Below are positions 30,117-56,068 of a DNA stretch of 64,000 nucleotides, in pieces. The notes below the pieces were generated by a model, which saw nothing but the letters and a program-made list of their open reading frames with translations, was not told the DNA's origin and did no database searches. Source of the DNA: Methanomassiliicoccales archaeon (GTDB lineage: Archaea > Thermoplasmatota > Thermoplasmata > Methanomassiliicoccales > UBA472). The DNA is taken from contig JAJRAN010000055.1 of the NCBI GenBank assembly GCA_028682915.1, positions 318 through 64,317 on the forward strand, in the 5' to 3' direction. The position numbers and the translations under genes are program-made. The first letter of the stretch is position 1, and every line of letters starts with the position of its first letter.

Positions 30117-30923
30117 TTACCTTGAGCGTTTCTTGCCAGCCTGGACCTTATCCACGGCCAGCATGAAGGCGTATATGATGGCCTGAGGTCGAGGCGGGCA
30201 ACCGGGTATGTAAACGTCGATGGGCAGTACCCCATCCACCCCGTTTCCCGAGGCGTAGCTGTCCTTGAAGATCCCGCCTGAGCAGGCGCAGGCTCCCATG
30301 GCCATTACCAGCTTTGGATCGGGGACGGCTTTATAAGTCTGCAGGAGCGCGTGCTCCATATTCCTGGTTACAGGGCCTGTGACAAGGAGCACATCGGCGT
30401 GCCTGGGGCTAGCCACGATGTGAAGTCCGAACCTCTCGATGTCATGAATGGCGTTGGTCAAAGAGTTCACCTCGACCTCGCAGCCGTTGCAGGAGCCGGC
30501 ATCGACCTCTCGGATGGATAGCGACCGGCCGAGCGCCTTCTGCGTCTTGGCCTCGAGCCTCCGGCCGAGCGTCTCCGTCGAGGGCTCCCGGTCGACGGCC
30601 CCGGAAACGACCAGATCCTGCCTTTTCCTTGTGGCCAGCTCGAATTCCTTGGTGATGCTTATGGCCCCTTCCGGGCAGGACCTGGAGCATTCCCCGCAGA
30701 AGATGCAGGCGCCCAGGTCGATATGGATGGCGCCATCGAAGGAGAGGATTGCGCCGGTCGGGCATGCTTCGACGCAAGCTTTGTGCAAACTGCATTTAGA
30801 AGAGTCGACGTGCGGGGCGCCCTGGTGCCCATCGTACGGCTCGTAGCGCTCTTTGGGATAACCTGAGGTCACGATGCCCTTCCTCAGCACTCCCGTTTCG
30901 ATAGGTTTCAGCATGCATATCAC
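30117..30923 (-). CDS. Fused 2x[4Fe-4S] ferredoxin (HycF/HyfH/NuoI-like) and hydrogenase small subunit (HycG/HyfI/NuoB-like)
   Basis: 268 aa. The N-terminal half has CSLHKACVEACP and CIFCGECSRSCP. The C-terminal half has NuoB/HycG motifs GSCNGCE, ASPRHADVLLVTGP, GACACSGG, PGCPPRP. GTG start lies 1 nt after the large-subunit stop. Confidence 0.85.
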   Translation of the reverse strand: MICMLKPIETGVLRKGIVTSGYPKERYEPYDGHQGAPHVDSSKCSLHKACVEACPTGAILSFDGAIHIDLGACIFCGECSRSCPEGAISITKEFELATRKRQDLVVSGAVDREPSTETLGRRLEAKTQKALGRSLSIREVDAGSCNGCEVEVNSLTNAIHDIERFGLHIVASPRHADVLLVTGPVTRNMEHALLQTYKAVPDPKLVMAMGACACSGGIFKDSYASGNGVDGVLPIDVYIPGCPPRPQAIIYAFMLAVDKVQAGKKRSR

Positions 30924-30924
30924 C

Positions 30925-32514
30925 TCAAAGGTCGCTCCCGGAATAGGACAGGTTGAAGGATTTGTTGATCAGAGGGAAATCGGGGACGATGTTCCCCAGC
31001 ACGGCTGTCTCCATCGCCCTCCAATTGTGGAAGGAGGCGTCACGGACCTTGTGCCGGAGTGGCCTGTTGCTCTCCCCCGAGATCGTCCAATGCACCAGCT
31101 CTCCACGAGGTGATTCGACCAGGCCCATGGACGTCTTCCCTTCCTCCACGTCCACGACGCGGTCGAGAATCGCCCCCGATGGAAGGCCGCCCAATGCCTG
31201 TTCCACGATGCTTATGGACTCGTTGAGCTCGTCCAGCTTGACCAGGAGTCGCGCCTGGACGTCGCCCTCGTACCTGACGGGGACGCGGAAGCTCATGTGA
31301 CGATAGGCGGCATACGGATGATCACGGCGGACGTCCCGGTCCAAACCAGAGGCGCGCGCCACCGGGCCGACCAGGTTGAGGTCCTTGGCCGTGACCAAGG
31401 AGACCGCGCCAGTGGCCTCGGTCCGATCCAATACCGATTGGGTACCAAAGACCAACGAGGCGAACTCCTTCAGATCCAGCTTGAGCCGTATGAGCTCGCT
31501 GAGGGTTCTCTGCAGCTTCTCGGCGGGTATGTCCATCCTCACCCCACCGAGGCAGTTGATCCCTCTCAACAGCCTGCTCCCGGCCAAGTAGTCGTTGAGG
31601 TCCAACGCCCTCTCCCTCATGATGTACGCATGTTGCGCGGCCACGTTGAAAGCCACATCCAGTGCGATTCCGCCCACGTCCCCCAACAGGCAATGGATTC
31701 GTTCCAGCTCGGCGAATGCCGTGCGCAGGTGCTCGGCCCTCTCTGGCGCGCTATGGGTCATGCCCTCGACCGCTTGGCAGAAGGCTAGGGAGTGGGAGAA
31801 GGAATTATCGCCCGATATCCGCTCCGCGAGGAATACTCCTTTCTCGTAGGTCAGACGCTCGAACAGTTTCTCCGTGCCTTTGTGCGCGTATCCGAGGCGG
31901 ATCTCGAGGTTCAGGATCGGCTCGCCGGCAACGCTGAAACGGAAATGCCCCGGCTCGATCACGCCAGCATGCACCGGCCCGACGGGGATCTCGAAGACGC
32001 CCTCGCCCTCGACGCGATGATATGTATAGCTTGAGGGCAGCCGCTGGACCTTCTTCTCCGCCGGAAAGTCCTTGAGGAGTGGATGCTCCTCGATGGGCCA
32101 ATCGTCATAGAGAACTAGAGGGCGGGGGTCAGGATGCCCGACCGGGACCATCCCAAGGAGGTCATGCATCTCCCTCTCGTACCAATCGGCGCATGGGATG
32201 TCGGGGGTCAAGGAGCGGAAGCTAGGATGCTCTGGGTCCATGCTCGTCAAGAGAACGGCGAAGTCCTCCTCCCCTTTGAGCGCCAGGACCAGGACCAGCT
32301 TCAGGTCATTGCTGGCGATTCGATTGTCCACGCCGTGGAAGGTGACGATGCTGGCTCCCCAGAGGTTGTGGATGTGCGCCGCCACCTGAGCGAAGGCGTC
32401 CAGCTCGACCTCCAGCCACATCTCGTTGCCCTTAACCCTCCTCGACTTGATCTTGTCCGACAGTTCCTCGGGCATGGAGCGAAGGATGTCCTGCATCCGG
32501 CTCTCGGTCATCAT
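30925..32514 (-). CDS. HycE/HyfG-like large subunit (NuoC-NuoD fusion type) lacking the [NiFe]-binding cysteines
   Basis: 529 aa counted from the ATG that overlaps the hyfF-like stop (ATGA at 32511..32514). The track's 889-aa ORF is an artefactual 5' extension. The sequence is collinear with group-4 large subunits. At the N-terminal RxCGxCxxxH position it reads ERISGDNSFSH (31804..31821). At the C-terminal DPCxxCxxR position it reads NLSYSGSDL-stop (30928..30954). I verified both by translating the DNA myself. Confidence 0.9.
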   Translation of the reverse strand: MMTESRMQDILRSMPEELSDKIKSRRVKGNEMWLEVELDAFAQVAAHIHNLWGASIVTFHGVDNRIASNDLKLVLVLALKGEEDFAVLLTSMDPEHPSFRSLTPDIPCADWYEREMHDLLGMVPVGHPDPRPLVLYDDWPIEEHPLLKDFPAEKKVQRLPSSYTYHRVEGEGVFEIPVGPVHAGVIEPGHFRFSVAGEPILNLEIRLGYAHKGTEKLFERLTYEKGVFLAERISGDNSFSHSLAFCQAVEGMTHSAPERAEHLRTAFAELERIHCLLGDVGGIALDVAFNVAAQHAYIMRERALDLNDYLAGSRLLRGINCLGGVRMDIPAEKLQRTLSELIRLKLDLKEFASLVFGTQSVLDRTEATGAVSLVTAKDLNLVGPVARASGLDRDVRRDHPYAAYRHMSFRVPVRYEGDVQARLLVKLDELNESISIVEQALGGLPSGAILDRVVDVEEGKTSMGLVESPRGELVHWTISGESNRPLRHKVRDASFHNWRAMETAVLGNIVPDFPLINKSFNLSYSGSDL

Positions 32515-33971
32515 CCACCTCCCGGGAAGAGGCGCGCGATGCCTTCCAGCATGTCGTTCAGTCCCTGGGGCAGGTAGAGGCCCAGGACCAGGACCCCTGC
32601 GAGCAGAGCGACGATGAGCAGGATCGCGCTCAGGTCCCCTTCGCGCCTCCCCTGCTCTTTGGGGGGGTGGCCGAAGACCATCCTCGAAGCGCGTAGGAGC
32701 ACGACGGCGAAGATGATGGCGAGGAGCACCAGGTAGAGCGATATGACCAGCAATTCCCCTGCCTGCAGCCCGGCCATGAGTATGACCAGCTCGCTCACGA
32801 AGATGCCGAAGGGGGGGCACCCGACTATGGCCAGGAAGCCGGCGAACCATAAGGTCGAGGTGATGGGCATGGTCTTGGAGAGGCCTCTTATCTCCTCGAT
32901 GGTCCTGGTCTTCGTCCTGGCATACACCTGGCCAGCGCCGAAGAACAACGCACTCTTGGTCAAGGCGTGATTGAGCATCTGCAGCAGTCCGCCGATGATG
33001 CCCAGAGGCCCGCCGATCCCAAAGCCCAGGGCGATCACGCCCATGTGCTCGATGGAGCTGTAAGCGAGCAGGCGCTTGAAGTCCTTGGCCAGGATGATGA
33101 AGGCCGCGGCGATGGCCATGGAGAGCACGCCGAAAAGCACAAGCAGTCCGCCGGAGAAGCCTGGGCCGAGAGAGGTGGAAGATATCATGTGGTAGCGCAG
33201 GATGGCGTACATGGCGCAATTGAGGAGGACGCCTGAGAGCAGGGCGGAGATGGGGGTGGGGGCCTGCGAGTGCGCGTCGGGCAGCCATGTATGCATCGGC
33301 GCGAGACCGACCTTGGTGCCGTAGCCGACCAGGACGAGGATGAAGGAGATGCGCAGCAGCGTAGGGTCCAGCTGTCCGGCCATGGCCAGGAGCGACGACC
33401 ATTCCAGCGAGCCGCCGCCTTCGCCCAGCTGCTGGATGGAAGAGGCGTAGAGCAGGATCGTGCCCAGGAGGGCCAGGGTGATGCCCACCGAGCAGATTAT
33501 TACGTACTTCCAAGCCGCCTCCAACGAGCTCTCGCTGTTGTAGAAGCTCACCAAGAAGGCCGATGCCAGAGTGGTGGCCTCGATGGCGATCCACATGACC
33601 CCCAGGTTATCAGAGAGGCACACCAGGACCATGGTCATGACGAAGGCGTGCAGCAGGGCGTAGTAGTAGCTTATGCGCTTGGCCCCGAACCTGCCCTCCT
33701 GCAGTTCCCTGCCCATGTAGCCTACCGAATAAAGGGAGGTGGCTAACGACACGATTGCCACCAGCATCAACATGAAGGCGCTGAGCCCGTCCATGTAGAG
33801 CGTCCCCTCGTCCTTGGCGCCGTTGGTGACCACGTCGTATGAGGCGAGCAGCGATGCGGCGAGTAGGGCGACGGAACCGAGGCTGCTGGCCCACTCCACC
33901 TTCCTCCGATCCCTTAGGAGGAGGCAGACGAGCGCGGTCAAGACTGGAATCAGCAGCAGGAGCTCGAGCAT
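32511..33971 (-). CDS. HyfF-like antiporter-type membrane subunit (NuoM/N family)
   Basis: 486 aa, about 14 TM helices. Proton-conducting membrane transporter blocks (WLPDAHSQAPTPISALLSGVLLN, SSIEHMG). Confidence 0.85.
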   Translation of the reverse strand: MLELLLLIPVLTALVCLLLRDRRKVEWASSLGSVALLAASLLASYDVVTNGAKDEGTLYMDGLSAFMLMLVAIVSLATSLYSVGYMGRELQEGRFGAKRISYYYALLHAFVMTMVLVCLSDNLGVMWIAIEATTLASAFLVSFYNSESSLEAAWKYVIICSVGITLALLGTILLYASSIQQLGEGGGSLEWSSLLAMAGQLDPTLLRISFILVLVGYGTKVGLAPMHTWLPDAHSQAPTPISALLSGVLLNCAMYAILRYHMISSTSLGPGFSGGLLVLFGVLSMAIAAAFIILAKDFKRLLAYSSIEHMGVIALGFGIGGPLGIIGGLLQMLNHALTKSALFFGAGQVYARTKTRTIEEIRGLSKTMPITSTLWFAGFLAIVGCPPFGIFVSELVILMAGLQAGELLVISLYLVLLAIIFAVVLLRASRMVFGHPPKEQGRREGDLSAILLIVALLAGVLVLGLYLPQGLNDMLEGIARLFPGGG

Positions 33972-34640
33972 CTAATCCCTCAACCTCCTCAGGAACGAAG
34001 TGTCAAGGGTGTCGAAGGTGCGGTTGATGCGGAAGACGAAGACGCCCATGATCAGCACGGCCACCATGATGTCGAAGAAGACCCCTAGCTCGACGATCAA
34101 GGGCATGCCGTAGCTGAGGGAGAGGGCGGCCATGAACAGGCCATTCTCCATCACCAGGAGGCCGATGACCTGGGTGATGGCCTTCTTGCGGCTGATCATC
34201 ACGAAAAGGCCGATGAGCACCACGGCCAGGGAGAGCGCAAGGGCGCCGGCGGTGATCGTCTCCCCGCTCTGGATGAGGGGCTCGGCCACATAGTATGCCA
34301 AGATGGCCAGTCCTCCCGCGATGAGCAGAGAGGAAGGGGTTCGCACCGAAGGCTCGACGTCGTTGGCCACCTGGATCCGGTCCATCACCCGGTCGATGAT
34401 GCGAGGGATGACCAGCGCCTTCAGCAGGATGGTCAGGGCGGCGACAATGTAGATATGCCAATAGCCGGTGCTGTAGGCGACCGCGGCCGCGAGGAGCCCG
34501 AGAGCCAGGGACTGCAGGGCGAACACCCGGACCAAGGTGCGCATGCGCCCCGTGGCCACGATTAGGAAGGCCGTGAGCAGCACCAGCGCCGCCAGACCGT
34601 CTATCAGATTAACGTCGAGCTCGGCCATCTTCTCCCTCAC
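33972..34640 (-). CDS. HyfE-like small membrane subunit (NuoK-related)
   Basis: 222 aa, about 7 TM helices. The GLLVMENGLFMAAL block matches the HyfE LMENG motif. Overlaps the upstream gene by 4 nt. Confidence 0.8.
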   Translation of the reverse strand: MREKMAELDVNLIDGLAALVLLTAFLIVATGRMRTLVRVFALQSLALGLLAAAVAYSTGYWHIYIVAALTILLKALVIPRIIDRVMDRIQVANDVEPSVRTPSSLLIAGGLAILAYYVAEPLIQSGETITAGALALSLAVVLIGLFVMISRKKAITQVIGLLVMENGLFMAALSLSYGMPLIVELGVFFDIMVAVLIMGVFVFRINRTFDTLDTSFLRRLRD

Positions 34641-35572
34641 AGAACGAAGTACGACATTACCGCCAGGAAGGCGAGCATGAACGCCCCCGTGAGCAGGTTC
34701 GGCAGTCGAAACAGCCTGAGCTTAGCCATGGAAGATTCGATCACGGCGATGACCACAGCCAGGGTCAATAGCTTAGCTAGGAAGACAATCACACCAAGGG
34801 CTAGGGCTGGAGCGGTGATCTCGGTGGCCACGCCCCAGGGCAGGAAAGCGCTCCAAGCGATGGTGACGAACAGGGTGAGCTTGACCATGCTGGAATACTC
34901 CATCAGCGCCAGGTCCTTACCTGAATACTCCAGGAGCATGGCCTCGTGGATCATGGTCAGCTCGAGATGGGTGGAGGGGTTGTCCACTGGCACCCGTGCG
35001 TTCTCGGCGAGGACGGCGATGAGGAAGGCTGCGAATGCCAGCAGCAGGGCGGGCCCTATAAGGCTGGCACCCGAGGTCGCGATGACGCTTGTGACCGAGA
35101 CCAGAGAGGTCGTTCCGGTCAACAATGCCACGGTGAAGAAGGAGAGCAGGATTGCGGGCTCGATCAACGAGGAGACCAGCATCTCCCGGCTCGACCCCAT
35201 GCCGCCGAATGTGGACCCGGCGTCCAATGCGGCCAAGGCCGTGAAGAACCGGGTCATGGCGAAGAGATAGACCAGGACGATCAGGTCCCCTAGGAAGCCG
35301 AGGCTCTCGGTCACGAAGGCGGGGACCAGCAGGGCCGCGACCACCATCGAGATTAGGCATACATAGGGAGTAATGGTGGTGACCCAGGAGGAATCCTCGG
35401 ATACCACCGAGCCCTTGCGCATTAGCTTGGCAAGGTCGAGGTAGGGCTGGTAGATCGGGGGGCCGCGCCGGCTCTGCATCCATGCCTTGAGCTTGCGGAT
35501 TATCCCGGTGAGAAGGGGAGCGAGGGCCAGCAGCGCAGCCGTTTGGATCAGGGCGAGGACAAGGTCGGCCAT
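34637..35572 (-). CDS. HycD/HyfC-like membrane subunit (NuoH family)
   Basis: 311 aa. N-terminal LAPLLTGIIRKLKAWMQSRRGPPIYQPYLDLAKL matches the NuoH/HycD RRGP signature. Confidence 0.9.
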   Translation of the reverse strand: MADLVLALIQTAALLALAPLLTGIIRKLKAWMQSRRGPPIYQPYLDLAKLMRKGSVVSEDSSWVTTITPYVCLISMVVAALLVPAFVTESLGFLGDLIVLVYLFAMTRFFTALAALDAGSTFGGMGSSREMLVSSLIEPAILLSFFTVALLTGTTSLVSVTSVIATSGASLIGPALLLAFAAFLIAVLAENARVPVDNPSTHLELTMIHEAMLLEYSGKDLALMEYSSMVKLTLFVTIAWSAFLPWGVATEITAPALALGVIVFLAKLLTLAVVIAVIESSMAKLRLFRLPNLLTGAFMLAFLAVMSYFVL

Positions 35573-35576
35573 TTCC

Positions 35577-37730
35577 TCACCTGAACACCAGAAGAAGGAG
35601 TATGAGGGCGGCGAATATGTACGCCAGGTACCTCTGTACGCTCCCCGTTTGGATTATGCTCGCTCGCCTGGCGACGCCCAGGATGGTGCGCGCCACCGGC
35701 TCGTAGAGATAGGTCTCGAATAACCGTGGTATGCTTGAGGAATAGGTCATGCCCCTCCTCGAATACGGGGAGGAGGTTGGATCTGAGGAGAGACTGCTCT
35801 CCCCCCTGAGGAAGGGGTTGAACACTCGGAGGATGGGCTGGGAGTGGCCGGTCGGGGTGTACTCGTTCCTGGGGCCCAGAGGCGTCCCACAGTCCCAGGT
35901 CTTCCCCTTTACCCGCGGGGTCCTTCCTCCCCAGGACCTGACCAAGATGAAGGCGAATGGGATCATCAGTCCAAGCAATCCAGCCAGCAGGATCGGGGAG
36001 ACGCTGGAGACCTCCCCGCCATCCACTTCCAGGACCCAGCCATCGGTAAGCTGACCGGCGATGGACACGCCGATCACATCCGTGCTGGCCTGGTCCACCA
36101 TGGGGATTATCTGGGCCGCGAGGACGCCGGTGGCCAGGCAAAGACCGGCCAAGATGGACATGGCCAGGAGCAGGCTGCGATGCGATTCTCGAGGATGCTT
36201 GGCCGCCTCGCTCCTGGGCCGGGCCAAGAACACGCTCCCGAAGATGCGCACGAAGCAGGCGGCCGCCAAGGCGCCAGTTAGCGCGAGCATGCCCAGGGCT
36301 ATGGCCATGAGCAGGTTCACTGTCACGTCATGGATGGAGTAGGAGAGGAGAAGGGACTGGAAGATCAGCCATTCGCTGATGAATCCGTTGAAGGGGGGTA
36401 TGGCCGATATGGACAGCACCCCGATGAAGAAGAGGATGCTGGTGTACCGCATGCCCTTCCCCAGGCCTCCCATCCTCTCCATGTCCTTTGTCCCGGTGGC
36501 ATGGACCACCGCCCCCGCCCCGAGGAATAGGAGGGACTTGAACAGGGAGTGGAAGAGCACGTGGAGCAAACAGGCCACCAGGGCCAGGGCGGCGATCTGC
36601 ATCATACCCTGGGCGTAGAATACCATGGCGGCTCCCAAGGCGATGAAGATTATTCCAACGTTCTCGACCGTGGAGAAGGCCAGGGCCCTCTTGATGTCCT
36701 TCTCGGCGATAGCGTAGAGTACCCCCAGCAAGGCGGTGAGGGAGCCGACGAAGAGGGTCAAGAGACCCCACCACATCAGATCGACGTGCAGGAATTGGAA
36801 GGCGGTGCGGATGAGCATGTACACCGCCAGCTTGACCATGACCCCTGACATCAGTGCCGAGACGTTGCTCGGGGCCGAAGGATGAGCCTGTGGCAGCCAT
36901 ACATGGAGGGGCACTATGCCGGCCTTGGCCCCGAAGCCTATCAGCGCGAGAAGGAAGGCGCCGCTTCGGGCCAGCTCGGTCATTCCCTGACCAGCGTACA
37001 GCGATATCTGATGGAAGTCGAGAGAACCTGCCATCAAGGACAGGTACAGAAGGCAGCTTGCGATGCATGCCGTCCCGAGATGGGCCATCACGAGATACAG
37101 CCATGCCGCGGACGCGGCCCCCTCCTCCTCATGCTCGTAGGCTACCAGCAGATAGGAGGAGAGCGACATCAGCTCCCAGAAGACCAGGAAGAGGAAGACG
37201 TTGCTCGACGCCACGACCATGACCATCGAGACCAGGAAGAGGGGGAAAAGCGCGCAGAACTTGGCTATGCTATACCTGCCGATGAACTGCTGGACATAGC
37301 CTAGTGAATAGATGGAGGCTGCGAGGGCCACGATGGAGATGGCGGCGAGGAACAGGGCGGCGAGGGGATCTATGACGACAGCGAACGGCCCGAGGAAGGG
37401 GATGGCGGTGAACTCGAAGCTCATGCTTCCCTCCAGGAAAACGCTGATCGAGGTCAGCAAACCCATGAGTGAGGCAAGGGCCGAGAGCCCGAATGACAGG
37501 TTGATGCAGAGCCGCTCCTTCCTGACCGTGACCAGGGCGGCCACGGTCGCGAGCGCTCCCAACGTGATCGTCGCCGCGAACGAATAGGTCCCTAGCGTTA
37601 CCAGCCACCTCTTCGGGCCTTCTCGCACAGGTCCCAAGGTGGAACCTCGTGCGAGAACGACCCGGTTTTGGCTGGCAAAATCGTCCTTCCTTTTAAGGAT
37701 TTCGTGAGCTTTGATTTCAATAGGAATCAA
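35577..37730 (-). CDS. HyfB-like antiporter-type membrane subunit (NuoL/MnhA family)
   Basis: Up to 717 aa, collinear with HyfB (FWELMSLSSYLLV, WLPQAHPSAPSNVSALMSGVMVK). The track start is TTG 37730. A TTG at about 37637 preceded by GAGGT, or a GTG at about 37628, are plausible shorter starts. Confidence 0.85.
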   Translation of the reverse strand: MIPIEIKAHEILKRKDDFASQNRVVLARGSTLGPVREGPKRWLVTLGTYSFAATITLGALATVAALVTVRKERLCINLSFGLSALASLMGLLTSISVFLEGSMSFEFTAIPFLGPFAVVIDPLAALFLAAISIVALAASIYSLGYVQQFIGRYSIAKFCALFPLFLVSMVMVVASSNVFLFLVFWELMSLSSYLLVAYEHEEEGAASAAWLYLVMAHLGTACIASCLLYLSLMAGSLDFHQISLYAGQGMTELARSGAFLLALIGFGAKAGIVPLHVWLPQAHPSAPSNVSALMSGVMVKLAVYMLIRTAFQFLHVDLMWWGLLTLFVGSLTALLGVLYAIAEKDIKRALAFSTVENVGIIFIALGAAMVFYAQGMMQIAALALVACLLHVLFHSLFKSLLFLGAGAVVHATGTKDMERMGGLGKGMRYTSILFFIGVLSISAIPPFNGFISEWLIFQSLLLSYSIHDVTVNLLMAIALGMLALTGALAAACFVRIFGSVFLARPRSEAAKHPRESHRSLLLAMSILAGLCLATGVLAAQIIPMVDQASTDVIGVSIAGQLTDGWVLEVDGGEVSSVSPILLAGLLGLMIPFAFILVRSWGGRTPRVKGKTWDCGTPLGPRNEYTPTGHSQPILRVFNPFLRGESSLSSDPTSSPYSRRGMTYSSSIPRLFETYLYEPVARTILGVARRASIIQTGSVQRYLAYIFAALILLLLVFR

Positions 37731-37776: not shown

Positions 37777-38013
37777 CTAGGTCATGACCGACCGAAGCCC
37801 TCTGTCGTTCTCATAGCGGAACGCCACCTCCTTCGCCCAAGAGTCTGGAAGCCCATGGTGCTCTTTGAGATGCTTGACGGTGAGGTCGTGCCCCCTCTCC
37901 GCCACGCCATATTCGTCCAGTAAAACAAACCATTCTTGCCAGGTCTTCCCGGTGGCATCCCTCACCTCCTCGTCGCCGATGACCTTCTCCTTCCTCTTGC
38001 AGCTCCGGCCCAT
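37777..38013 (-). CDS. DUF4287-like small protein
   Basis: 78 aa. ATGKTWQEWFVLLDEYG...HLKEHHGLPDSWAKEVA resembles the DUF4287 pattern (TGKT..E.F......H.....L....GL). An oligo-T run follows the stop. Confidence 0.5.
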   Translation of the reverse strand: MGRSCKRKEKVIGDEEVRDATGKTWQEWFVLLDEYGVAERGHDLTVKHLKEHHGLPDSWAKEVAFRYENDRGLRSVMT

Positions 38014-38128
38014 GTTGTCGCTATTCGCCTGGCCTTGTTATAAGCATTCCTTTGCTTCGAGACCGATGGCGGTTGCCACCATCGCGTTAATATACGCGCG
38101 CCATGGTTGTATCGGAGGAGGCCCCCGG

Positions 38129-38650
38129 ATGGAAGATGCGATCGCGAGGAAGGAGATGAGCGCGGCCGTGCTCAAGACCGCGCTGGCCATCGAGGAGTTC
38201 GGCATCAGGTTCTATTCGGAGCTGAGCGACTGTGTCGCTGATGAGAGAGGGAGGGCGCTCATGCGCAGCCTGGGCAGCGACGAGCAGGAGCATGCGCGCA
38301 TCATCAAGAAGGAGATGGAACGCCTATCTATCCGGACGAATGGCTCTGGCGTAGAACCGTTACATGAGTACCTCGAGATCCTTCCAGAAAAGGTCTTCAC
38401 CAGGCCTAAGGACTCCTGCCTCACGGTGGAGGACGAGATAGCCGCCTTGCAGAAGGGCATAGAGGTCGAGATAAATTCCATCAGGATGTATCAGGATGCT
38501 TCATCCAGAGCCCTTGACCCGAAGACCATGAGCACCATCGAGGAGCTGACCCGTTGGGAGCTGAGACATCGAGAGATCCTCGAGGAGAACATGCGCACCC
38601 TCAAGCTGGGAGGAGCTTGGTACGGGTACGGCCCGATATTGGAAGGATGA
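38129..38650 (+). CDS. Rubrerythrin/ferritin-like diiron four-helix-bundle protein
   Basis: 173 aa from the ATG preceded by GGAGGAGG. Paired E...ExxH ligand pattern (AIEEFG / SDEQEHARII / IEVEINS / WELRHREIL). The track ORF start (37865) is an antisense-overlapping extension. Confidence 0.65.
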   Translation: MEDAIARKEMSAAVLKTALAIEEFGIRFYSELSDCVADERGRALMRSLGSDEQEHARIIKKEMERLSIRTNGSGVEPLHEYLEILPEKVFTRPKDSCLTVEDEIAALQKGIEVEINSIRMYQDASSRALDPKTMSTIEELTRWELRHREILEENMRTLKLGGAWYGYGPILEG

Positions 38651-38672
38651 AGCTTTTTTTCAAAAGCTTTTT
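38650..38672 (+). terminator. Hairpin plus T-tract terminator
   Basis: AAGCTTTT-TTTC-AAAAGCTT followed by TTT, starting at the last base of the stop codon. Confidence 0.45.
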
Positions 38673-38829
38673 AAGGGCGTTAATGCTGGCTCTGTTACGA
38701 CATACCAGCAGTGCCCGGTGAATAAATTAAAATACCTAGGTAACATGCCTAGAGCAATCCCGTCCCCTGTCGAAATCCGGTGGGACTGGAGTCGCCGGCT
38801 GATTCGGTGTGGTATTAGAGGTGCATGGC

Positions 38830-39993
38830 ATGGCAAGGTTGCCGAATATTAACAGAGAGTTGTCGGCCTGTCTCCAGTGTGGCTACTGCGTTCGCGTATG
38901 CGACACCTACGCCCAGGAGCCATGGGAATCCAACAGCCCCCGTGGCAAGATATATTACCTGAAGCAGCTGCAGAACAAGACCCCCATCGACAAGATGCTC
39001 GGTCGGAAGGTCGAGGTCGACGAAGAGTTCGTCGAAGCCTTATACAAATGCACTGGATGCGCCGCCTGCTGGTCCGTCTGCCACGTCAGCATCGAGTTCG
39101 CCGAGTTCTGGGAGGTCGTCCGCGAATGGGTGGTGGACCAGGGCAAGGGCCCGCTACCAGCGCACAAGAAGCTGGGCGAGAGCATCCTGGCCAATAACAA
39201 CCCCTACAAGGAGCCGCCGGCCAAGCGCGGGGACTGGTTCCCTTCGAACATCAACAAGGTCGCTATGAACCCCGACGTCTGCTTCTTCGCGGGTTGCACC
39301 GCCTCCTACAGGATGCAGAGGATCCCCCAGGCGGCCGCCACCTTCCTGGACCGCTGCGGAGTGAGGCAGAACATCATGGGCGCCGACGAGATGTGCTGCA
39401 CCTCCCCGATGCTCAGGACCGGGCAGATCAAGGCGTCCCGCGACTTCGCGGAGAACAACGTCCGCCAGACGGAGAAGATGGGGGCCAGGGCCATGGTCAC
39501 CGCTTGCGCCGGCTGCTACAAGACCACGACCCACGATTACAAGCGCTTCTACAGCCGCCCATCCTTCGAGGTCTATCACTTCTCGCAGTACGCGCTCAAG
39601 CTGCTGAAGGAGAAGAAGGTCAAGTACACCAAGAACTATGGAAACATGAAGGTCACTTACCACGACCCCTGCCACCTAGGAAGGCACGCGGGCGTTTTCG
39701 AGGTCCCGCGCGAGGTCATCAAGTCCGTGCCGGGGCTCGAGCTGGTGGAGATGGGCCGCAACCGCATGAGCTCGCAGTGCTGCGGGGCGGGAGGCGGTTA
39801 CAAGTCGCAGTTCAACGAGTTCGCCGTCAACATCGCCGCCAAGAGGGTCAAGGAGGCCATTGACACGGGAGCCGAGCGCATAATCACCACCTGCCCGTTC
39901 TGCGTGCTGAACCTGCAGCAGGGCGCGAAGCAACTTGGCTCCGATATCAAGGTGATGGACCTATCAGAGCTGCTGGCCGAAGCGACGGCTTAA
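38830..39993 (+). CDS. HdrD/GlpC-type (Fe-S) oxidoreductase with two [4Fe-4S] motifs and two CCG domains
   Basis: CLQCGYCVRVCD and CTGCAACWSVCH are ferredoxin motifs. Two cysteine-rich CCG-type domains follow (GC...EMCCTSP...TACAGCY and DPCHLGRH...SQCCGAGGG...TTCPFCV). ATG 38830 follows a GAGGTG RBS (track start is GTG 38809). Confidence 0.8.
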   Translation: MARLPNINRELSACLQCGYCVRVCDTYAQEPWESNSPRGKIYYLKQLQNKTPIDKMLGRKVEVDEEFVEALYKCTGCAACWSVCHVSIEFAEFWEVVREWVVDQGKGPLPAHKKLGESILANNNPYKEPPAKRGDWFPSNINKVAMNPDVCFFAGCTASYRMQRIPQAAATFLDRCGVRQNIMGADEMCCTSPMLRTGQIKASRDFAENNVRQTEKMGARAMVTACAGCYKTTTHDYKRFYSRPSFEVYHFSQYALKLLKEKKVKYTKNYGNMKVTYHDPCHLGRHAGVFEVPREVIKSVPGLELVEMGRNRMSSQCCGAGGGYKSQFNEFAVNIAAKRVKEAIDTGAERIITTCPFCVLNLQQGAKQLGSDIKVMDLSELLAEATA

Positions 39994-40517: not shown

Positions 40518-43259
40518 ATGGTATTCGAGCTGCTCGACCCCAAGATCCAGAAGGTGCTCAGGGAGAAGGACATCCGTGAGCCGACCGGCCCGCAGCGGCA
40601 GGCCATCCCCCACATCCTCAAGGGGGAGCACGTTCTTCTCGTGGCCCCGACTGGGATAGGCAAGACCGAGGCGGCCATGCTTCCCATCCTTCATATGCTT
40701 CTAAGGTCGGGGGGCAAGGGCATAAAATGTATCTACGTCACCCCGCTCAGGGCGCTGAACCGGGACCTGCTCCGGCGTCTGGAAGAGTTCGGGAAGGCGC
40801 TCGGGCTGGAGGTGGCGGTACGGCACGGGGACACGCCCCAATCGGAGAGGAACAGGCAATCGCGCAAGGCACCGGACGTACTCATCACCACCCCGGAGAC
40901 GCTGCAGATCATGTTCTCCGGTAAGAGGCTGAGGGAGCACTTGGCAAACGTGCGCTTCTTCGTCGTCGATGAGATCCATGAGCTGGCCGAGGACGAGCGC
41001 GGAGCGCAGCTGGCCGTGGCCATGGAGAGACTGATCAAGGAGGCGGGCGAGTTCCAGAGGATCGGCCTGTCCGCCACCGTGGGCAGCGTCCAAGAGGTCG
41101 CCAACTACCTCGGCGGGGCGGAGCGGAAGGTCACCTCGATCCGCGCCCACGTGGCCAAGGACATGCGCGTGACGGTGCAGAGCCCAGGTGTGAGCGACGA
41201 GGACAAGGACCTGGCGGGGACGTTGCAGAGCGAGCCCCAGCTGGTGTCCTGCATGCGTCGCTGCCGCCAGATCATCGAGGCGCATCGCTCCACGCTGCTA
41301 TTCGTCAACACCCGCGACACCGCGGAGGCGCTCGCTGCCAGGTATCACGTCTGGGATGATGGGTTCCCCGTGGGCGTGCATCATGGCTCTCTCTCTAAGG
41401 AGACGCGAATCGAAATGGAGGAGAGCTTCAAGAAGGAACGGCTGAAGGGGCTCATATGCACCTCGTCCCTCGAGCTGGGGATCGACATAGGTAGCGTCGA
41501 CTTCGCCATCCAATACAACTCGCCCCGCCAGGTCGCCAGGCTCATCCAGAGGATGGGGCGGGCGGGGCACAGCGTCGGCGCCAAGTCCGAGGGGGCCATA
41601 GTGGCCTCCACGCCTGACGAGATCGCTGAGTCCCTGGTCATCACCCGCAAGTCCACCAAGGAGGAGCTGGAACCCCTCCGGATCAGGGAGAACCCCTTGA
41701 CCGTCCTGGCGAACCAGATCGTGGCCATGGCCATGGTCGGGATGGTCGAGAAGGAGGAGGCCTACCACATTTTGACCCGCTCGTTCCCATTCCGCAACCT
41801 TACCAAAGAGACCTTCGAAGGCGTGCTCGAGCAGCTAGGGAGGATAGGCCTGGTATTCATCGGGGAAAATGACTACCGGCGCTCGAGCCGGGGTATGCGC
41901 TACTTCTACGACAACCTGTCCATGATCCCCGACGAGAGGAGCTTCAGGATCAGGGAGCTGTCCTCGCGCAAGATCGTAGGGCAGCTGGACGAGTCGTTCG
42001 TGGTCTCTTTCGCCGAGCCCTATGCCACCTTCATCACCCGCGGTAGGTCCTGGCGCATCGTCGAGATGAAGGAGGACGAGCTGCTGGTGGAGCAGGTGAA
42101 GGAGATCGGCTCCATCCCATCCTGGGTGGGGGAGGACATACCGGTGCCTTATGATGTGGGCACCGAGGTGGGGCGGCTGCGCCGCCTGCGTAACTTCGAG
42201 GACTATGCCGGGGACGAGGAGGCGGTGGGCAAGCTCCGACGCTACTTAGAGGAGCAGAGCAAGGAGGCTAAGGTCCCCACCGACCAGCTGCTGACATTGG
42301 AGATGGGGAGGAAGCTGGCCATACTCAATTGCTGCTTCGGTTCCAAGGTGAACGAGACGCTTTCCAAGCTCCTTTCGGTGCTGCTCTCGGCGCGGATCGG
42401 GGAGAGCATCGCGGTCCACACCGACCCTTACCGGATCGTTCTGGAGCTGCCCCGGGACATAAGGGCGGTCACCATCATCGACACCCTGAAATCGATAAGG
42501 TCGGAGAACGTGGAGGGCCTAGTCCGCCTGGTGATCAAGAACTCCTCCTTCCTCAGGTGGCGGTTCGTCCACGTGGCCAAGAAGTTCGGGGCGGTGGAGA
42601 AGGAAGCGGATTACCAGAGCATCAACTTCAACCGCCTCTTCGAGGCCTACGACGGCACGCCCATGTACGACGAGGCCGTGGCCCGCGTCCTCTGGGAGGA
42701 CCTGGACCTGGAGGGAACGGCCAAGGTGGTGAGGCAGATCGAGACCGGCGAGCTGCAGGTCGACGTGACCCCGCTCACGCCCATTGGCCGGGCCGGGTTG
42801 GAGTACTCCAAGGAGCTTATCGCTCCCCAGAGGGCCGACCATTCCATCCTCATGGCGCTCAAGAACCGCCTGGAGGATGAGCAGATGTTCATGACCTGTA
42901 TCAACTGCAAGGCGCAGTGGCGCCTGAAGGTGAGGGACGCCCCCCGCCATATTCATTGCGAGAGGTGCGGGGGCAAGATGGTCGCGGCGCTGCACTCCTA
43001 CAACAAGGATGATGCCAGGCTGCTGTCGAACAAGGACCTCGGCGAGGAGGAGGAGGCCGAGGTGAGGCGGATGTACAAGAACGCCAGCCTGGTCAACAAG
43101 AACGGGAAGAAGGCCCTGCTCTGCCTGGCTGGCCGGGGCGTGGGGCCGGACACCGCCGCCCGCGTGCTCGCTGGTTACCACGAGAACGAGGACGAGTTCC
43201 TCAGGGAGATACTAAGCGCCGAGATAACCTATGCCAGGACGAAGAAGTTCTGGGATTGA
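40518..43259 (+). CDS. Lhr-type DEAD/DEAH-box ATP-dependent helicase
   Basis: 913 aa. Motif I APTGIGKTEAA, motif II VVDEIHE, motif III SAT, motif VI QRMGRAGH. A long Lhr-type C-terminal region ends in a Zn ribbon (CINCKAQW...CERCGGKM). Confidence 0.9.
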   Translation: MVFELLDPKIQKVLREKDIREPTGPQRQAIPHILKGEHVLLVAPTGIGKTEAAMLPILHMLLRSGGKGIKCIYVTPLRALNRDLLRRLEEFGKALGLEVAVRHGDTPQSERNRQSRKAPDVLITTPETLQIMFSGKRLREHLANVRFFVVDEIHELAEDERGAQLAVAMERLIKEAGEFQRIGLSATVGSVQEVANYLGGAERKVTSIRAHVAKDMRVTVQSPGVSDEDKDLAGTLQSEPQLVSCMRRCRQIIEAHRSTLLFVNTRDTAEALAARYHVWDDGFPVGVHHGSLSKETRIEMEESFKKERLKGLICTSSLELGIDIGSVDFAIQYNSPRQVARLIQRMGRAGHSVGAKSEGAIVASTPDEIAESLVITRKSTKEELEPLRIRENPLTVLANQIVAMAMVGMVEKEEAYHILTRSFPFRNLTKETFEGVLEQLGRIGLVFIGENDYRRSSRGMRYFYDNLSMIPDERSFRIRELSSRKIVGQLDESFVVSFAEPYATFITRGRSWRIVEMKEDELLVEQVKEIGSIPSWVGEDIPVPYDVGTEVGRLRRLRNFEDYAGDEEAVGKLRRYLEEQSKEAKVPTDQLLTLEMGRKLAILNCCFGSKVNETLSKLLSVLLSARIGESIAVHTDPYRIVLELPRDIRAVTIIDTLKSIRSENVEGLVRLVIKNSSFLRWRFVHVAKKFGAVEKEADYQSINFNRLFEAYDGTPMYDEAVARVLWEDLDLEGTAKVVRQIETGELQVDVTPLTPIGRAGLEYSKELIAPQRADHSILMALKNRLEDEQMFMTCINCKAQWRLKVRDAPRHIHCERCGGKMVAALHSYNKDDARLLSNKDLGEEEEAEVRRMYKNASLVNKNGKKALLCLAGRGVGPDTAARVLAGYHENEDEFLREILSAEITYARTKKFWD

Positions 43260-55140: not shown

Positions 55141-55148
55141 GTGTTGCC

Positions 55149-56057: not shown

Positions 56058-56068
56058 GGGTGACCAAA

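What the first reader, a model, noticed from the sequence alone, without database searches (positions are those of the whole stretch)
37777..39993. HdrD-type CCG-domain oxidoreductase and a rubrerythrin-like protein encoded divergently from the NiFe-less complex
The upstream flank of the operon holds a diiron rubrerythrin-like gene (38129..38650). Next to it is a gene with two [4Fe-4S] motifs plus two CCG cysteine-rich domains (38830..39993), the architecture of HdrD/GlpC/LutA-type disulfide or quinone-linked oxidoreductases. In Methanomassiliicoccales a hydrogenase/complex-I-like Fpo-type module is proposed to pair with soluble HdrD as a ferredoxin:heterodisulfide oxidoreductase. An analogous pairing with this Hyf-derived module would be a new variant of that idea. 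The functional link rests only on proximity and is purely inferential.
Basis: inference. Interest (0 to 1): 0.55.

Follow-up and report, generated by a model that had tools for sequence, protein, structure and literature searches.

The report
Methanogen HdrD beside an Ehr complex
The gene is the known heterodisulfide reductase subunit HdrD of Methanomassiliicoccales archaea; it sits, with a small diiron protein, next to a hydrogenase-like membrane complex of unknown role, and this neighbourhood is inherited across the group, including its cultured type strain, without good evidence yet that the two work together.

Summary
38830-39993 (+) encodes a soluble 387-aa protein with two CxxCxxCxxxC motifs and two complete CCG motifs. 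38129-38650 (+) encodes a rubredoxin-less rubrerythrin-family diiron protein.

The window is a contig of a Methanomassiliicoccales MAG (GCA_028679885.1). The CCG protein is the ortholog (66.6% identity, same synteny) of the HdrD of Methanomassiliicoccus luminyensis, whose activity was measured. It scores 253-285 bits against Methanosarcinales HdrD but 69-84 bits against E. coli GlpC, GlcF and LutA.

The neighbouring six-gene operon is not Fpo. It is an Ehr-type (energy-converting-hydrogenase-related) complex in which all four NiFe cysteines are replaced.

hdrD lies beside ehr in every Ehr-bearing Methanomassiliicoccales locus with enough flank (at least 11 lineages), including M. luminyensis B10. 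No paper I read mentions this. The arrangement looks like one inherited event:
- hdrD orthologs persist without ehr.
- ehr in Methanocella and Lokiarchaeia has no hdrD nearby.
- The hdrD-lhr linkage is even more conserved.
- The promoters are separate.
- In public M. luminyensis RNA-seq, hdrD tracks fpo, at 3-12 times the level of ehr.

An Ehr+HdrD ferredoxin:heterodisulfide oxidoreductase remains possible (about 0.2) but unproven. Verdict: a new member of known kinds, of moderate interest.

The parts
38830..39993 (+). hdrD: soluble heterodisulfide-reductase catalytic subunit, 387 aa. The N-terminal part is HdrC-like with 2x[4Fe-4S]; the C-terminal part is HdrB-like with 2xCCG.
   Evidence: Pfam and NCBIfam hits. 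Motif positions. Invariant cysteines. 66.6% identity to M. luminyensis HdrD WYS_RS12230 and 36-40% to Methanosarcinales HdrD encoded next to hdrE.
38722..38752 (+). Putative hdrD promoter: a TATA-like AATAAATTAAAATA followed by the inverted repeat CCTAGGTAACATGCCTAG. The leader is about 75 nt and ends in a GAGGTG Shine-Dalgarno-like ribosome-binding sequence.
   Evidence: Read from the sequence. Conserved in the window's clade. Unique in the window. Function is inferred, not shown.
38651..38675 (+). T-rich stretch with an AAGCTT...AAGCTT inverted repeat directly after the rbr stop codon; a likely archaeal terminator separating rbr from hdrD.
   Evidence: Read from the sequence. In M. luminyensis the rbr genes and hdrD are not co-expressed, r = -0.84 and -0.40. 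Inference.
38129..38650 (+). Rubrerythrin-family (ferritin-like) diiron protein without a rubredoxin domain, 173 aa.
   Evidence: PF02915 at E 1.1e-12. ExxH motifs and absence of CxxC. Closest solved structure is TM1526, a ferritin-like diiron-carboxylate protein. It stays next to hdrD even where ehr is absent (L006, L007, L012).
37777..38013 (-). Small DUF4287 protein, 78 aa, between rbr and ehrA. It is a lineage-specific insert.
   Evidence: PF14117 at E 3.2e-07. Present in the window clade only and absent in L005, L011, L014, L090 and L128.
35577..37628 (-). ehrA: NuoL/HyfB-like antiporter subunit. The NCBI start gives 683 aa; the ORF is open up to 37730.
   Evidence: Proton_antipo_M at E 3e-57. 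Gene call.
34637..35572 (-). ehrB: NuoH/HyfC-like membrane subunit.
   Evidence: NADHdh PF00146 at E 1.6e-42.
33972..34628 (-). ehrC: HyfE/NuoK-like membrane subunit.
   Evidence: Oxidored_q2 at E 3.8e-07. Gene call.
32511..33971 (-). ehrD: NuoM/N/HyfF-like antiporter subunit.
   Evidence: Proton_antipo_M at E 8.1e-57.
30925..32511 (-). ehrL: NuoC-NuoD (HycE-like) fusion large subunit with all four NiFe cysteine ligands replaced.
   Evidence: Complex1_30kDa and Complex1_49kDa. HycE 7z0s_E 279 bits against Nqo4 152 bits, with the motif alignment. The substituted motifs are conserved in 15 homologs.
30117..30914 (-). ehrS: fusion of a HycF/NuoI-like 2x[4Fe-4S] ferredoxin domain and a NuoB-like small subunit that keeps its proximal-cluster cysteines.
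   Evidence: Oxidored_q6 and Fer4. Sequence.
29702..30091 (+). Universal stress protein gene, convergent with ehr; a conserved companion of ehr.
   Evidence: Usp at E 1e-29. Same position in L005, L090, L091, L097 and L128.
40518..43259 (+). Lhr-type helicase, the most constant neighbour of hdrD across the order. It serves as a synteny control and is not a functional partner.
   Evidence: NCBIfam PRK13767. hdrD-lhr adjacency in nearly all orthologous loci.

Best explanation
The CCG gene is hdrD of a Methanomassiliicoccales archaeon. It encodes a soluble iron-sulfur protein. [quoted passage not shown]

What is shown: identity, motifs, and orthology to the M. luminyensis enzyme whose activity was measured.

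What is inferred: that CoM-S-S-CoB is the substrate in this particular uncultured organism.

Its neighbours are separate transcription units. One is a rubredoxin-less rubrerythrin-family diiron protein, probably for oxidative-stress defence. The other is a six-subunit Ehr complex, a NiFe-less relative of Hyf and complex I with two antiporter-like subunits. Ehr most likely oxidises ferredoxin and moves ions, with an unknown acceptor.

The hdrD-ehr adjacency is best read as one ancestral gene order. It was inherited along the Methanomassiliicoccus-like branch of the order and eroded by deletions. It is not evidence of a dedicated two-part enzyme. The main electron donor to HdrD is more likely the 11-subunit Fpo-like complex encoded elsewhere, as in the published model. 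Ehr is at most an alternative partner.
For: Identity of the protein:
- Pfam and NCBIfam architecture. The best full-length NCBIfam match is the HdrD-like C-terminal part of TfrB (245.7 bits, below the model's 385-bit curated cut-off), with HdrB and HdrC hits as well.
- Both CCG motifs fit CX31-39CCX35-36CXXC, and all their cysteines are invariant.
- The top 120 homologs that carry a taxonomic label are Methanomassiliicoccales or unclassified 'Euryarchaeota archaeon' proteins, several labelled HdrD by their sources.
- The contig is GCA_028679885.1, 'Methanomassiliicoccales archaeon'.
- 66.6% identity and identical synteny with M. luminyensis WYS_RS12230 = WP_019178460, the HdrD whose activity was measured.
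- 253-285 bits to Methanosarcinales HdrD encoded behind hdrE, against 69-84 bits to E. coli GlpC, GlcF and YkgE.

The adjacency as inherited synteny:
- Ehr-(DUF4287)-Rbr-HdrD-Lhr is found only within one clade.
- The Ech-HdrD order in Ca. M. intestinalis is explained by deletion of rbr-ehr-usp from the M. luminyensis/L128 order.
- Ten orthologous hdrD loci with at least 5 kb of upstream flank lack ehr.
- 0 of 64 more distant HdrD-like loci have a complex-I-like neighbour.
- ehr in Methanocella arvoryzae and in a Lokiarchaeia MAG has no hdrD nearby.
- hdrD-lhr-FAA hydrolase-rlmE-purM synteny is more widely kept than hdrD-ehr.

Regulation and expression:
- Promoter regions are separate, and the hdrD-specific inverted repeat is absent upstream of ehr.
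- In M. luminyensis CZDD1 RNA-seq (bioRxiv 10.1101/2024.03.29.587405, Dataset S2), hdrD averages 447 FPKM and correlates with fpo genes (210-814 FPKM, r = 0.83-0.97).
- In the same data the ehr genes average 37-161 FPKM; ehrD and ehrL show r of about 0.
Against: - Every Ehr-bearing Methanomassiliicoccales locus with enough flank, at least 11 lineages with HdrD identity 64-92% to the window, keeps hdrD within about 1.5-3.3 kb.
- ehr is the only membrane complex ever found next to hdrD. fpo lies far away in M. luminyensis (WYS_RS00365-420 against WYS_RS12230).
- The Fpo-HdrD contact has never been shown directly. One paper calls the Fpo-like complex's acceptor in this order 'so far unidentified'.
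- ehrA, ehrB and ehrC do co-vary moderately with hdrD (r = 0.71-0.88). With n = 6 and an obvious replicate effect, the RNA-seq argument is weak.
- Whether this genome has fpo, mcr or CoM/CoB biosynthesis could not be checked.
Confidence: 0.6

Rival explanations
1. Ehr and HdrD form a second membrane-bound, energy-converting ferredoxin:heterodisulfide oxidoreductase. Reduced ferredoxin feeds the EhrS ferredoxin-like domain, and electrons pass through the NuoB-like cluster to HdrD docked on EhrL/EhrS. With two antiporter-like subunits, against three in Fpo, the complex would pump fewer ions per heterodisulfide. That would be a lower 'gear', useful to free-living lineages.
For: - hdrD is next to ehr in all Ehr-bearing members of the order with enough flank, over HdrD divergence down to 64%.
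- ehr is the only membrane complex adjacent to hdrD.
- Ehr has no known acceptor. The residues replacing the NiFe cysteines are conserved, which suggests a functional pocket.
- Elsewhere ehr lies near another soluble oxidoreductase: fdhAB in Methanocella, and an FDH-Ehr proposal in PMC6349859. This fits a modular design.
- ehrA-C expression correlates moderately with hdrD.
- HdrD's membrane partner has not been shown directly.
Against: - The adjacency is a single inherited arrangement, not a repeated one.
- hdrD is retained where ehr is lost (L006, L008, L121-L123).
- ehr outside the order lacks hdrD.
- Two unrelated genes and separate promoters lie between the two, with no shared motif.
- ehr transcripts are 3- to 12-fold below hdrD, and ehrD and ehrL do not co-vary with it.
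- The equally conserved hdrD-lhr linkage shows that synteny here need not mean function.
Confidence: 0.2
2. The organism is not a methanogen. Its HdrD-like protein reduces another disulfide or serves another dehydrogenase, as proposed for HdrD or HdrD/GlcD in non-methanogenic Thermoplasmata basal to the order.
For: - No methanogenesis gene lies in the 64-kb window.
- HdrD-family proteins occur in Asgard archaea, Bathyarchaeia and Deltaproteobacteria.
- Zinke et al. infer Fpo-like+HdrD in a non-methanogenic relative.
Against: - The protein sits inside the clade that contains the M. luminyensis and Ca. M. intestinalis HdrD.
- The whole 20-kb synteny block matches M. luminyensis.
- No GlcD-like or lactate-utilisation gene is nearby.
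- 64 kb is only a small part of the genome, so the absence of mcr from the window says little.
Confidence: 0.1
3. The functional pair is rbr-hdrD, not ehr-hdrD. Either the diiron protein protects the oxygen-sensitive clusters of HdrD, or it draws electrons from HdrD or thiols for peroxide reduction.
For: rbr stays directly upstream of hdrD in loci that have no ehr (L006, L007, L012) as well as in all ehr-bearing ones. The window also holds other oxidative-stress genes.
Against: - rbr is missing next to hdrD in the host-associated family and in Ca. M. intestinalis.
- A T-run separates the two genes.
- In M. luminyensis the two rbr genes do not co-vary with hdrD; r = -0.84 and -0.40.
Confidence: 0.05

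Closest known systems
HdrD of Methanomassiliicoccus luminyensis (WYS_RS12230 / WP_019178460; Kroninger et al. 2016, as summarised in PMC7374477)
   Same: Ortholog: 66.6% identity over 386 residues, the same cysteine motifs, no hdrE, and the same gene order lhr-hdrD-rbr | ehr-usp.
   Different: The window protein lacks the roughly 40-residue Ala/Pro/Lys-rich C-terminal tail (387 against 429 aa). The window has one rbr plus DUF4287, where M. luminyensis has two rbr genes. There is no ech operon after usp. The organism is uncultured.
HdrDE of Methanosarcinales (membrane-bound, methanophenazine-dependent heterodisulfide reductase)
   Same: Same full-length HdrD architecture, with 36-40% identity and 253-285 bits.
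   Different: No hdrE cytochrome b gene is adjacent, whereas it directly precedes hdrD in L027, L029, L032, L040 and L052. The electron donor must therefore differ.
Fpo-like complex + HdrD model of Methanomassiliicoccales (Lang et al. 2015; Kroninger et al. 2016, 2019; cited)
   Same: The same HdrD, and the same idea that a 'headless' complex-I relative oxidises ferredoxin and hands electrons to soluble HdrD.
   Different: The complex next to hdrD is not Fpo. It has six genes rather than eleven, with NuoC-D and NuoI-B fusions and two rather than three antiporter-like subunits. It scores closest to HycE, not to FpoD or NuoD.
Ehr (energy-converting-hydrogenase-related) complexes, EhrABCDLS (Coppi 2005; Marreiros et al. 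2013; noted in Geobacter, Desulfotomaculum, Margulisbacteria and the MALP Methanomassiliicoccales genome)
   Same: Six subunits of the same types, a large subunit without NiFe cysteines, and function unknown.
   Different: Direct orthology to the Geobacter proteins was not tested. EhrS is a fused ferredoxin-NuoB protein here. The partners proposed elsewhere are formate dehydrogenases, not HdrD.
E. coli formate hydrogenlyase (Hyc, and the related Hyf/hydrogenase 4), PDB 7z0s
   Same: Best solved relative of the large subunit (279 bits), with the same NuoC-D fusion and the same membrane-subunit types.
   Different: The NiFe site is absent, so this is not a hydrogenase. There is no formate dehydrogenase or HycB-type partner in the operon.
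GlpC / GlcF / LutA (YkgE) CCG proteins
   Same: They share the CCG domains, and GlpC and GlcF also share the ferredoxin-like N-terminus.
   Different: Only 23-24% identity and 69-84 bits. They fall outside the HdrD clade in the NJ tree, and no glpAB, glcDE or lutBC genes are nearby.
Rubrerythrin / TM1526 ferritin-like diiron-carboxylate proteins
   Same: A four-helix-bundle diiron ligand pattern; PF02915.
   Different: No rubredoxin domain, so it is not a canonical rubrerythrin. Activity unknown.

Membership tests
HdrD (heterodisulfide reductase, HdrC-HdrB fusion type) | N-terminal ferredoxin-like domain with two CxxCxxCxxxC motifs | tested here: met
   C14-C24 and C74-C84. Fer4_8 and Fer4_17 hits. 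Invariant in 12 orthologs.
HdrD (heterodisulfide reductase, HdrC-HdrB fusion type) | Two CCG motifs CX31-39CCX35-36CXXC, the ligands of the two non-cubane [4Fe-4S] clusters. The consensus is from the HdrB structure and is taken from established knowledge. | tested here: met
   C156-x32-CC-x35-CxxC229 and C281-x35-CC-x36-CxxC358. PF02754 at E 2.4e-35 in 2 stretches. The first motif reads CCT/CCS rather than CCG throughout the clade.
HdrD (heterodisulfide reductase, HdrC-HdrB fusion type) | Closer to bona fide HdrD than to GlpC, GlcF or LutA | tested here: met
   253-285 bits to HdrD genes that follow hdrE in Methanosarcinales, against 69-84 bits to the E. coli proteins, plus the NJ tree. The tree has no bootstrap support values.
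HdrD (heterodisulfide reductase, HdrC-HdrB fusion type) | Orthology to an HdrD with measured heterodisulfide reductase activity | tested here: met
   66.6% identity and conserved 20-kb synteny with M. luminyensis WYS_RS12230.
HdrD (heterodisulfide reductase, HdrC-HdrB fusion type) | CoM-S-S-CoB available in the cell (mcr, CoM/CoB biosynthesis) and enzyme activity | not testable with these tools
   Only this contig is accessible. No methanogenesis gene lies in the window.
HdrDE-type membrane heterodisulfide reductase | Adjacent hdrE encoding the cytochrome b anchor | tested here: not met
   No such gene within 10 kb, whereas it is present directly upstream in five Methanosarcinales loci. Consistent with the literature for the whole order.
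Ehr complex (EhrABCDLS) | Six-gene operon: NuoL-like, NuoH-like, HyfE/NuoK-like and NuoM/N-like subunits, a large subunit and a small subunit | tested here: met
   Pfam on all six products. Same composition in relatives.
Ehr complex (EhrABCDLS) | Large subunit lacks the four NiFe-ligating cysteines | tested here: met
   Alignment to HycE. The same substitutions appear in 15 homologs.
Ehr complex (EhrABCDLS) | Orthology to the founding Geobacter sulfurreducens Ehr (GSU0739-45) | not tested
   No Geobacter sequence was compared. The assignment rests on composition, on the missing cysteines, and on the use of the name for a Methanomassiliicoccales genome in PMC6147122.
Group 4 [NiFe] hydrogenase (Hyf/Hyc/Ech/Mbh) | L1 and L2 CxxC motifs binding the NiFe centre | tested here: not met
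   RISGDNSFSH and NLSYSGSD stand in place of RxCGxCxxxH and DPCxxCxxx.
[quoted passage not shown] | fpoABCDHIJKLMN gene set, with separate FpoB, C, D and I and three antiporter-like subunits | tested here: not met
   The adjacent operon has six genes with C-D and I-B fusions and two antiporter-like subunits. In M. luminyensis fpo is a different, distant locus. Whether the genome holds fpo elsewhere is not testable.
Rubrerythrin | Diiron four-helix bundle (E...ExxH twice) plus a C-terminal rubredoxin domain (two CxxC) | tested here: inconclusive
   The diiron ligand pattern is present and the rubredoxin domain is absent. It is best called a rubrerythrin-family or ferritin-like diiron protein.

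The most novel reading that the evidence does not exclude
In the Methanomassiliicoccus-like branch, including the cultured M. luminyensis, the uncharacterised Ehr complex uses HdrD as its electron-accepting module. This would give a second, lower-stoichiometry ferredoxin:heterodisulfide oxidoreductase beside Fpo-like+HdrD. It would be the first physiological acceptor assigned to any Ehr complex. It would also mean that the membrane ferredoxin:heterodisulfide activity measured in M. luminyensis has been credited to Fpo without excluding the complex encoded next to hdrD.
Probability: 0.2. Interest if true: 0.7.

Novelty: new member of a known kind. Interest (0 to 1): 0.38.

Why it matters
Two questions are open. 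One is which membrane complex actually delivers electrons to HdrD in the cytochrome-free, methyl-reducing Methanomassiliicoccales, which produce methane in guts and wetlands. The other is what Ehr complexes do in any organism.

The window shows that hdrD and ehr are neighbours throughout one branch of the order. The same holds in the type strain in which the Fpo+HdrD model was developed, yet none of the papers read mentions it. That gives a cheap, testable hypothesis in a cultured organism.

Two cautions follow. Automated annotation labels Ehr subunits as NuoC, FpoD or 'hydrogenase 4', so genome surveys may count Ehr as Fpo or as a hydrogenase. As it stands, though, the genes are ordinary orthologs, and the functional link is not supported beyond inherited gene order.

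Tried and rejected
1. GlpC-, GlcF- or LutA-type enzyme: rejected on scores, on the tree and on the missing partner genes.
2. HdrDE type: rejected, because there is no hdrE.
3. The adjacent complex as the Fpo-like complex, or as a true Hyf/Ech hydrogenase: rejected on gene content and on the missing NiFe cysteines.
4. Ech-HdrD adjacency in Ca. M. intestinalis as independent recruitment of a second hydrogenase-type complex next to hdrD: rejected. L090 and L128 show the order hdrD-rbr|ehr-usp-ech-trx-methylase, so the adjacency is a deletion product.
5. A shared operator between the hdrD and ehr promoters: not found. The conserved CCTAGG...CCTAG repeat is unique to hdrD.
6. rbr-hdrD co-transcription: unlikely, given the T-run and the anti-correlated expression in M. 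luminyensis.
7. Context of more basal Thermoplasmata HdrD orthologs (L020, L022): the neighbours are unrelated genes, such as the trp operon, so no partner is indicated.
8. The bacterial-type promoter and terminator scan was uninformative for an archaeon.
9. In the NJ tree my ORF picker took antisense ORFs for L017, L018, L019 and L025. Those four tips are artefacts and were ignored.
10. Lang et al. 2015 and the Kroninger FEBS J papers are not held, so I know them only through papers that cite them.

Full report
**What is in the sequence**

The stretch 37777-39993 holds three genes.

The first, 38830-39993 (+), encodes a 387-aa protein.
- Pfam finds two CCG domains (PF02754, E 2.4e-35, two stretches) behind a dicluster ferredoxin domain.
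- The cysteine motifs are C14-x2-C-x2-C-x3-C24, C74-x2-C-x2-C-x3-C84, C156-x32-CC-x35-C-x2-C229 and C281-x35-CC-x36-C-x2-C358.
- All 18 of these cysteines are invariant in an alignment of 12 orthologs.
- The protein has no hydrophobic segment.
- The ATG at 38830, not the GTG at 38809, matches the N-termini of the homologs and the NCBI gene call.

The second, 38129-38650 (+), encodes a 173-aa rubrerythrin-family protein (PF02915, E 1.1e-12).
- It has the E...ExxH...E...ExxH diiron pattern but no rubredoxin CxxC pairs.
- The nearest solved structure is the ferritin-like diiron protein TM1526.

The third, 37777-38013 (-), encodes a 78-aa DUF4287 protein.

**Where the window comes from**

The exact HdrD-like protein is encoded on NCBI contig JAJRAO010000031.1 (67,046 bp) of assembly GCA_028679885.1. 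The identical large-subunit protein of the neighbouring operon is labelled 'Methanomassiliicoccales archaeon' (P0121).

The best 120 homologs of the CCG protein that carry a taxonomic label come from Methanomassiliicoccales or from unclassified 'Euryarchaeota archaeon' records. Several are called HdrD by their sources.

**Is it HdrD?**

- NCBIfam gives its best and only full-length match to the HdrD-like C-terminal half of thiol:fumarate reductase TfrB (245.7 bits, below that model's 385-bit curated cut-off). GlpC (105.6) and GlcF (91) match the CCG part only. HdrB and HdrC models match the C- and N-terminal parts.
- Solved structures give HdrB chains and a 1042-residue 'iron-sulfur-binding reductase'.
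- I fetched five Methanosarcinales loci in which the homolog directly follows a 259-280-aa membrane protein gene in the position of hdrE. I read these as hdrED operons.
- BLASTP of the window protein gives 253-285 bits (36-40% identity, full length) to those HdrD proteins. It gives only 69-84 bits to E. coli GlpC, GlcF and YkgE/LutA.
- In a neighbour-joining tree, which has no bootstrap support, the window protein lies inside a Methanomassiliicoccales/Thermoplasmata clade. That clade is distinct from a second paralog of the same order (L076, L082) and from the E. coli proteins.
- Four tips of that tree (L017-L019, L025) are artefacts of my ORF picker and were ignored.

The decisive link is the type strain. 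In M. luminyensis B10 (CAJE01000023.1) the gene order is lhr, hdrD (429 aa), rbr, rbr, then divergently ehrA-B-C-D-L, a ferredoxin gene, a nuoB-like gene, usp, echA-F and thioredoxin. A public RNA-seq table lists the same order as WYS_RS12225 to WYS_RS12315. WYS_RS12230 = WP_019178460 is the HdrD named as the enzyme of the M. luminyensis model, whose activity was measured (PMC7374477). It is listed as hdrD1 in PMC4153887. The window protein is 66.6% identical to it.

**What the neighbouring complex is**

The minus-strand operon 30117-37628 encodes six subunits:
- a NuoL/HyfB-like subunit;
- a NuoH-like subunit;
- a HyfE/NuoK-like subunit;
- a NuoM/N-like subunit;
- a NuoC-NuoD fusion;
- a ferredoxin-NuoB fusion.

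The large subunit scores best against E. coli formate hydrogenlyase HycE (279 bits, against 152 for Thermus Nqo4). The alignment shows all four NiFe cysteines replaced: RVCGICGFAH becomes RISGDNSFSH, and DPCYSCTD becomes NLSYSGSD. The replacing residues (R[IV]SGD......LSY[SA]G[NS]D[LM]) are themselves conserved in homologs from Methanomassiliicoccales, Methanocella and Lokiarchaeia.

This matches the published description of Ehr complexes: energy-converting-hydrogenase-related, EhrABCDLS, with no NiFe ligands and unknown function. One such complex was noted, with function unknown, in the 'Lake Pavin' Methanomassiliicoccales genome (PMC6147122). It is not the 11-subunit Fpo-like complex, which in M. 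luminyensis is a distant locus (WYS_RS00365-420).

**Test of the adjacency**

I used exact-protein look-ups, a scan of species-representative genomes with an HdrD alignment, and a metagenome scan with the large subunit. I then ran tblastn with all window proteins against the fetched loci.

- Every Ehr-bearing locus of the order with enough upstream flank has hdrD about 1.5-3.3 kb from ehrA, in the same orientation. These are the window, L003/4, L005, L010/L094, L011, L014, L021, L090, L093, L097 and L128/9. That makes at least 11 lineages, with HdrD identity 64-92% and EhrL identity 52-81% to the window.
- Ten orthologous hdrD loci with at least 5 kb of upstream flank have no ehr. AFOR lies upstream in L006/7 and L123. 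ech lies upstream in Ca. M. intestinalis L008/9. Unrelated genes lie upstream in L015, L017-L019, L023, L121 and L122.
- More basal Thermoplasmata orthologs lie next to unrelated genes such as the trp operon.
- None of 64 more distant HdrD-like loci (Asgard archaea, Bathyarchaeia, Methanosarcinales, Deltaproteobacteria) has a complex-I-like neighbour.
- ehr in Methanocella arvoryzae lies between frh and fdhC-fdhAB. ehr in a Lokiarchaeia MAG has no oxidoreductase neighbour. Neither has hdrD nearby.
- The block hdrD-lhr-FAA hydrolase-rlmE-purM-DUF531-deoxyhypusine synthase is kept across the whole order, including the host-associated family. Conserved synteny here therefore does not by itself imply function.
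- The Ech-HdrD adjacency of Ca. M. intestinalis is what remains when rbr-ehr-usp is deleted from the order seen in M. luminyensis and in L128. It is not an independent association.

**Regulation and expression**

hdrD and ehr do not share a promoter region.
- rbr is followed by a T7 run inside an inverted repeat (38651-38675).
- hdrD has its own AT-rich TATA-like box about 95 nt upstream of the ATG. It is followed in the window's clade by a conserved inverted repeat, CCTAGGTAACATGCCTAG, and a leader of about 75 nt.
- That repeat occurs once in the window and not upstream of ehr, which has its own TATA-like box and leader.

In the only expression data I could reach, M. luminyensis CZDD1 with three co-culture and three H2 replicates, hdrD averages 447 FPKM.
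- hdrD follows the fpo genes (210-814 FPKM; r of log values 0.83-0.97).
- The ehr genes average 37-161 FPKM. ehrA-C correlate moderately (0.71-0.88), and ehrD and ehrL not at all.
- The two rbr genes do not follow hdrD (-0.84 and -0.40).

With six samples and a visible replicate effect, this is suggestive only.

**Literature**

The papers I could read all pair HdrD with the Fpo-like complex and do not mention the Ehr operon beside hdrD. These are Borrel 2014, Speth and Orphan 2018, Cozannet 2020, Zinke 2020, the 2024 Genome Biology survey, the 2020 review, Kroninger 2017 and the 2024 preprint. [quoted passage not shown] Lang 2015 and the two FEBS J papers are not held, so I cannot exclude that they comment on it.

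**Conclusion**

The gene is a new ortholog of a known enzyme, beside a new member of a known but functionally unassigned complex family. The most likely mechanism has four steps:
1. Reduced ferredoxin is oxidised by a membrane complex-I relative.
2. Electrons enter HdrD through its two cubane clusters.
3. They reach the two CCG-bound clusters.
4. There CoM-S-S-CoB is reduced.

The donor complex is probably Fpo-like, on the basis of the literature and of expression level and pattern. Its appeal is that it can be tested in a cultured organism and would assign a first acceptor to an Ehr complex. Whether this particular MAG is a methanogen, and whether it has fpo at all, could not be tested with only this contig.

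Noticed in passing
window 38722-38752: Upstream of hdrD, a TATA-like AATAAATTAAAATA is followed directly by the perfect inverted repeat CCTAGGTAACATGCCTAG. The arrangement is conserved in the window's clade (L003, L010, L093, L094; degenerate in L097) and occurs once in the 64 kb. It could be an operator or a 5'-end hairpin of a roughly 75-nt leader.
   Followed up: partly
window 30117-30914 (-); L003, L005, L090, L091, L092: EhrS is a fusion of a HycF/NuoI-like ferredoxin and a NuoB-like subunit here and in Methanocella. It is split into two genes in M. luminyensis, L003, L005 and Lokiarchaeia. In the window and L003 the first Fe-S motif is C-x5-C-x3-CP instead of CxxCxxCxxxCP, so one cluster has only three cysteine ligands.
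   Followed up: partly
window 30925-32511 (-) and homologs P0122-P0240: The residues that replace the NiFe cysteines in EhrL (R[IV]SGD..., ...LSY[SA]G[NS]D[LM]) are conserved across Methanomassiliicoccales, Methanocella and Lokiarchaeia. This suggests the former active-site pocket keeps a function.
   Followed up: partly
window 29702-30091 (+); L005, L090, L091, L097, L128: A universal stress protein gene, convergent with the end of ehr, is kept in Methanomassiliicoccales and in Methanocella arvoryzae. It is a more widely conserved companion of ehr than hdrD is.
   Followed up: partly
L091 (Methanocella arvoryzae AM114193.2, 759263-780837): There ehr lies between frhABG (with a hycI-like protease gene) and fdhC-fdhAB plus a carbonic anhydrase gene. 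This fits the FDH-Ehr idea proposed for Margulisbacteria and the formate-linked abundance seen in Geobacter.
   Followed up: no
L008/L009 versus L090 and L128: Ca. M. intestinalis has hdrD directly beside ech1. Relatives show hdrD-rbr|ehr-usp-ech-trx-methylase, so the intestinalis order looks like a deletion of rbr-ehr-usp.
   Followed up: yes
window 40047-40370 (-): A chagasin-family (I42) peptidase inhibitor gene sits between hdrD and lhr. It is seen only on the window's own contig, on a second contig carrying the identical HdrD (L002), and in the closest relative fetched (L093). It is absent from more distant relatives.
   Followed up: no
window 7501-8265 (+), 23489-23968 (+), 1449-1874 (+): Further redox or oxidative-stress genes in this anaerobe's contig: a hemerythrin-rubredoxin fusion, an AhpC/TSA peroxiredoxin, and a C_GCAxxG_C_C putative redox protein.
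   Followed up: no
window 52368-57748 (+) and 58301-63904 (-): Two T2SSE-type ATPase genes and two T2SSF-type membrane protein genes (type IV pilus/archaellum-like) lie next to a 1867-aa protein with six CARDB repeats and C-terminal zinc ribbons.
   Followed up: no
window 48662-50557 (+): A 631-aa KaiC-like ATPase with a weak MEDS (methanogen/methylotroph DcmR sensory) domain match. It is part of the synteny block conserved with M. luminyensis relatives.
   Followed up: no
P0210, P0121 and other annotations: Source annotations call Ehr subunits 'NADH-quinone oxidoreductase subunit C', 'F420H2 dehydrogenase subunit D', 'hydrogenase 4 subunit B/F' or 'Ni,Fe-hydrogenase III large subunit'. Marker-based genome surveys could therefore count Ehr as Fpo or as a hydrogenase.
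   Followed up: no
L021 (CAVYIY010000008.1): In this MAG, hdrD and lhr match only in several frame-shifted pieces, and about 2.1 kb is inserted between ehrA and DUF4287. The cause is probably assembly errors or pseudogenisation.
   Followed up: no
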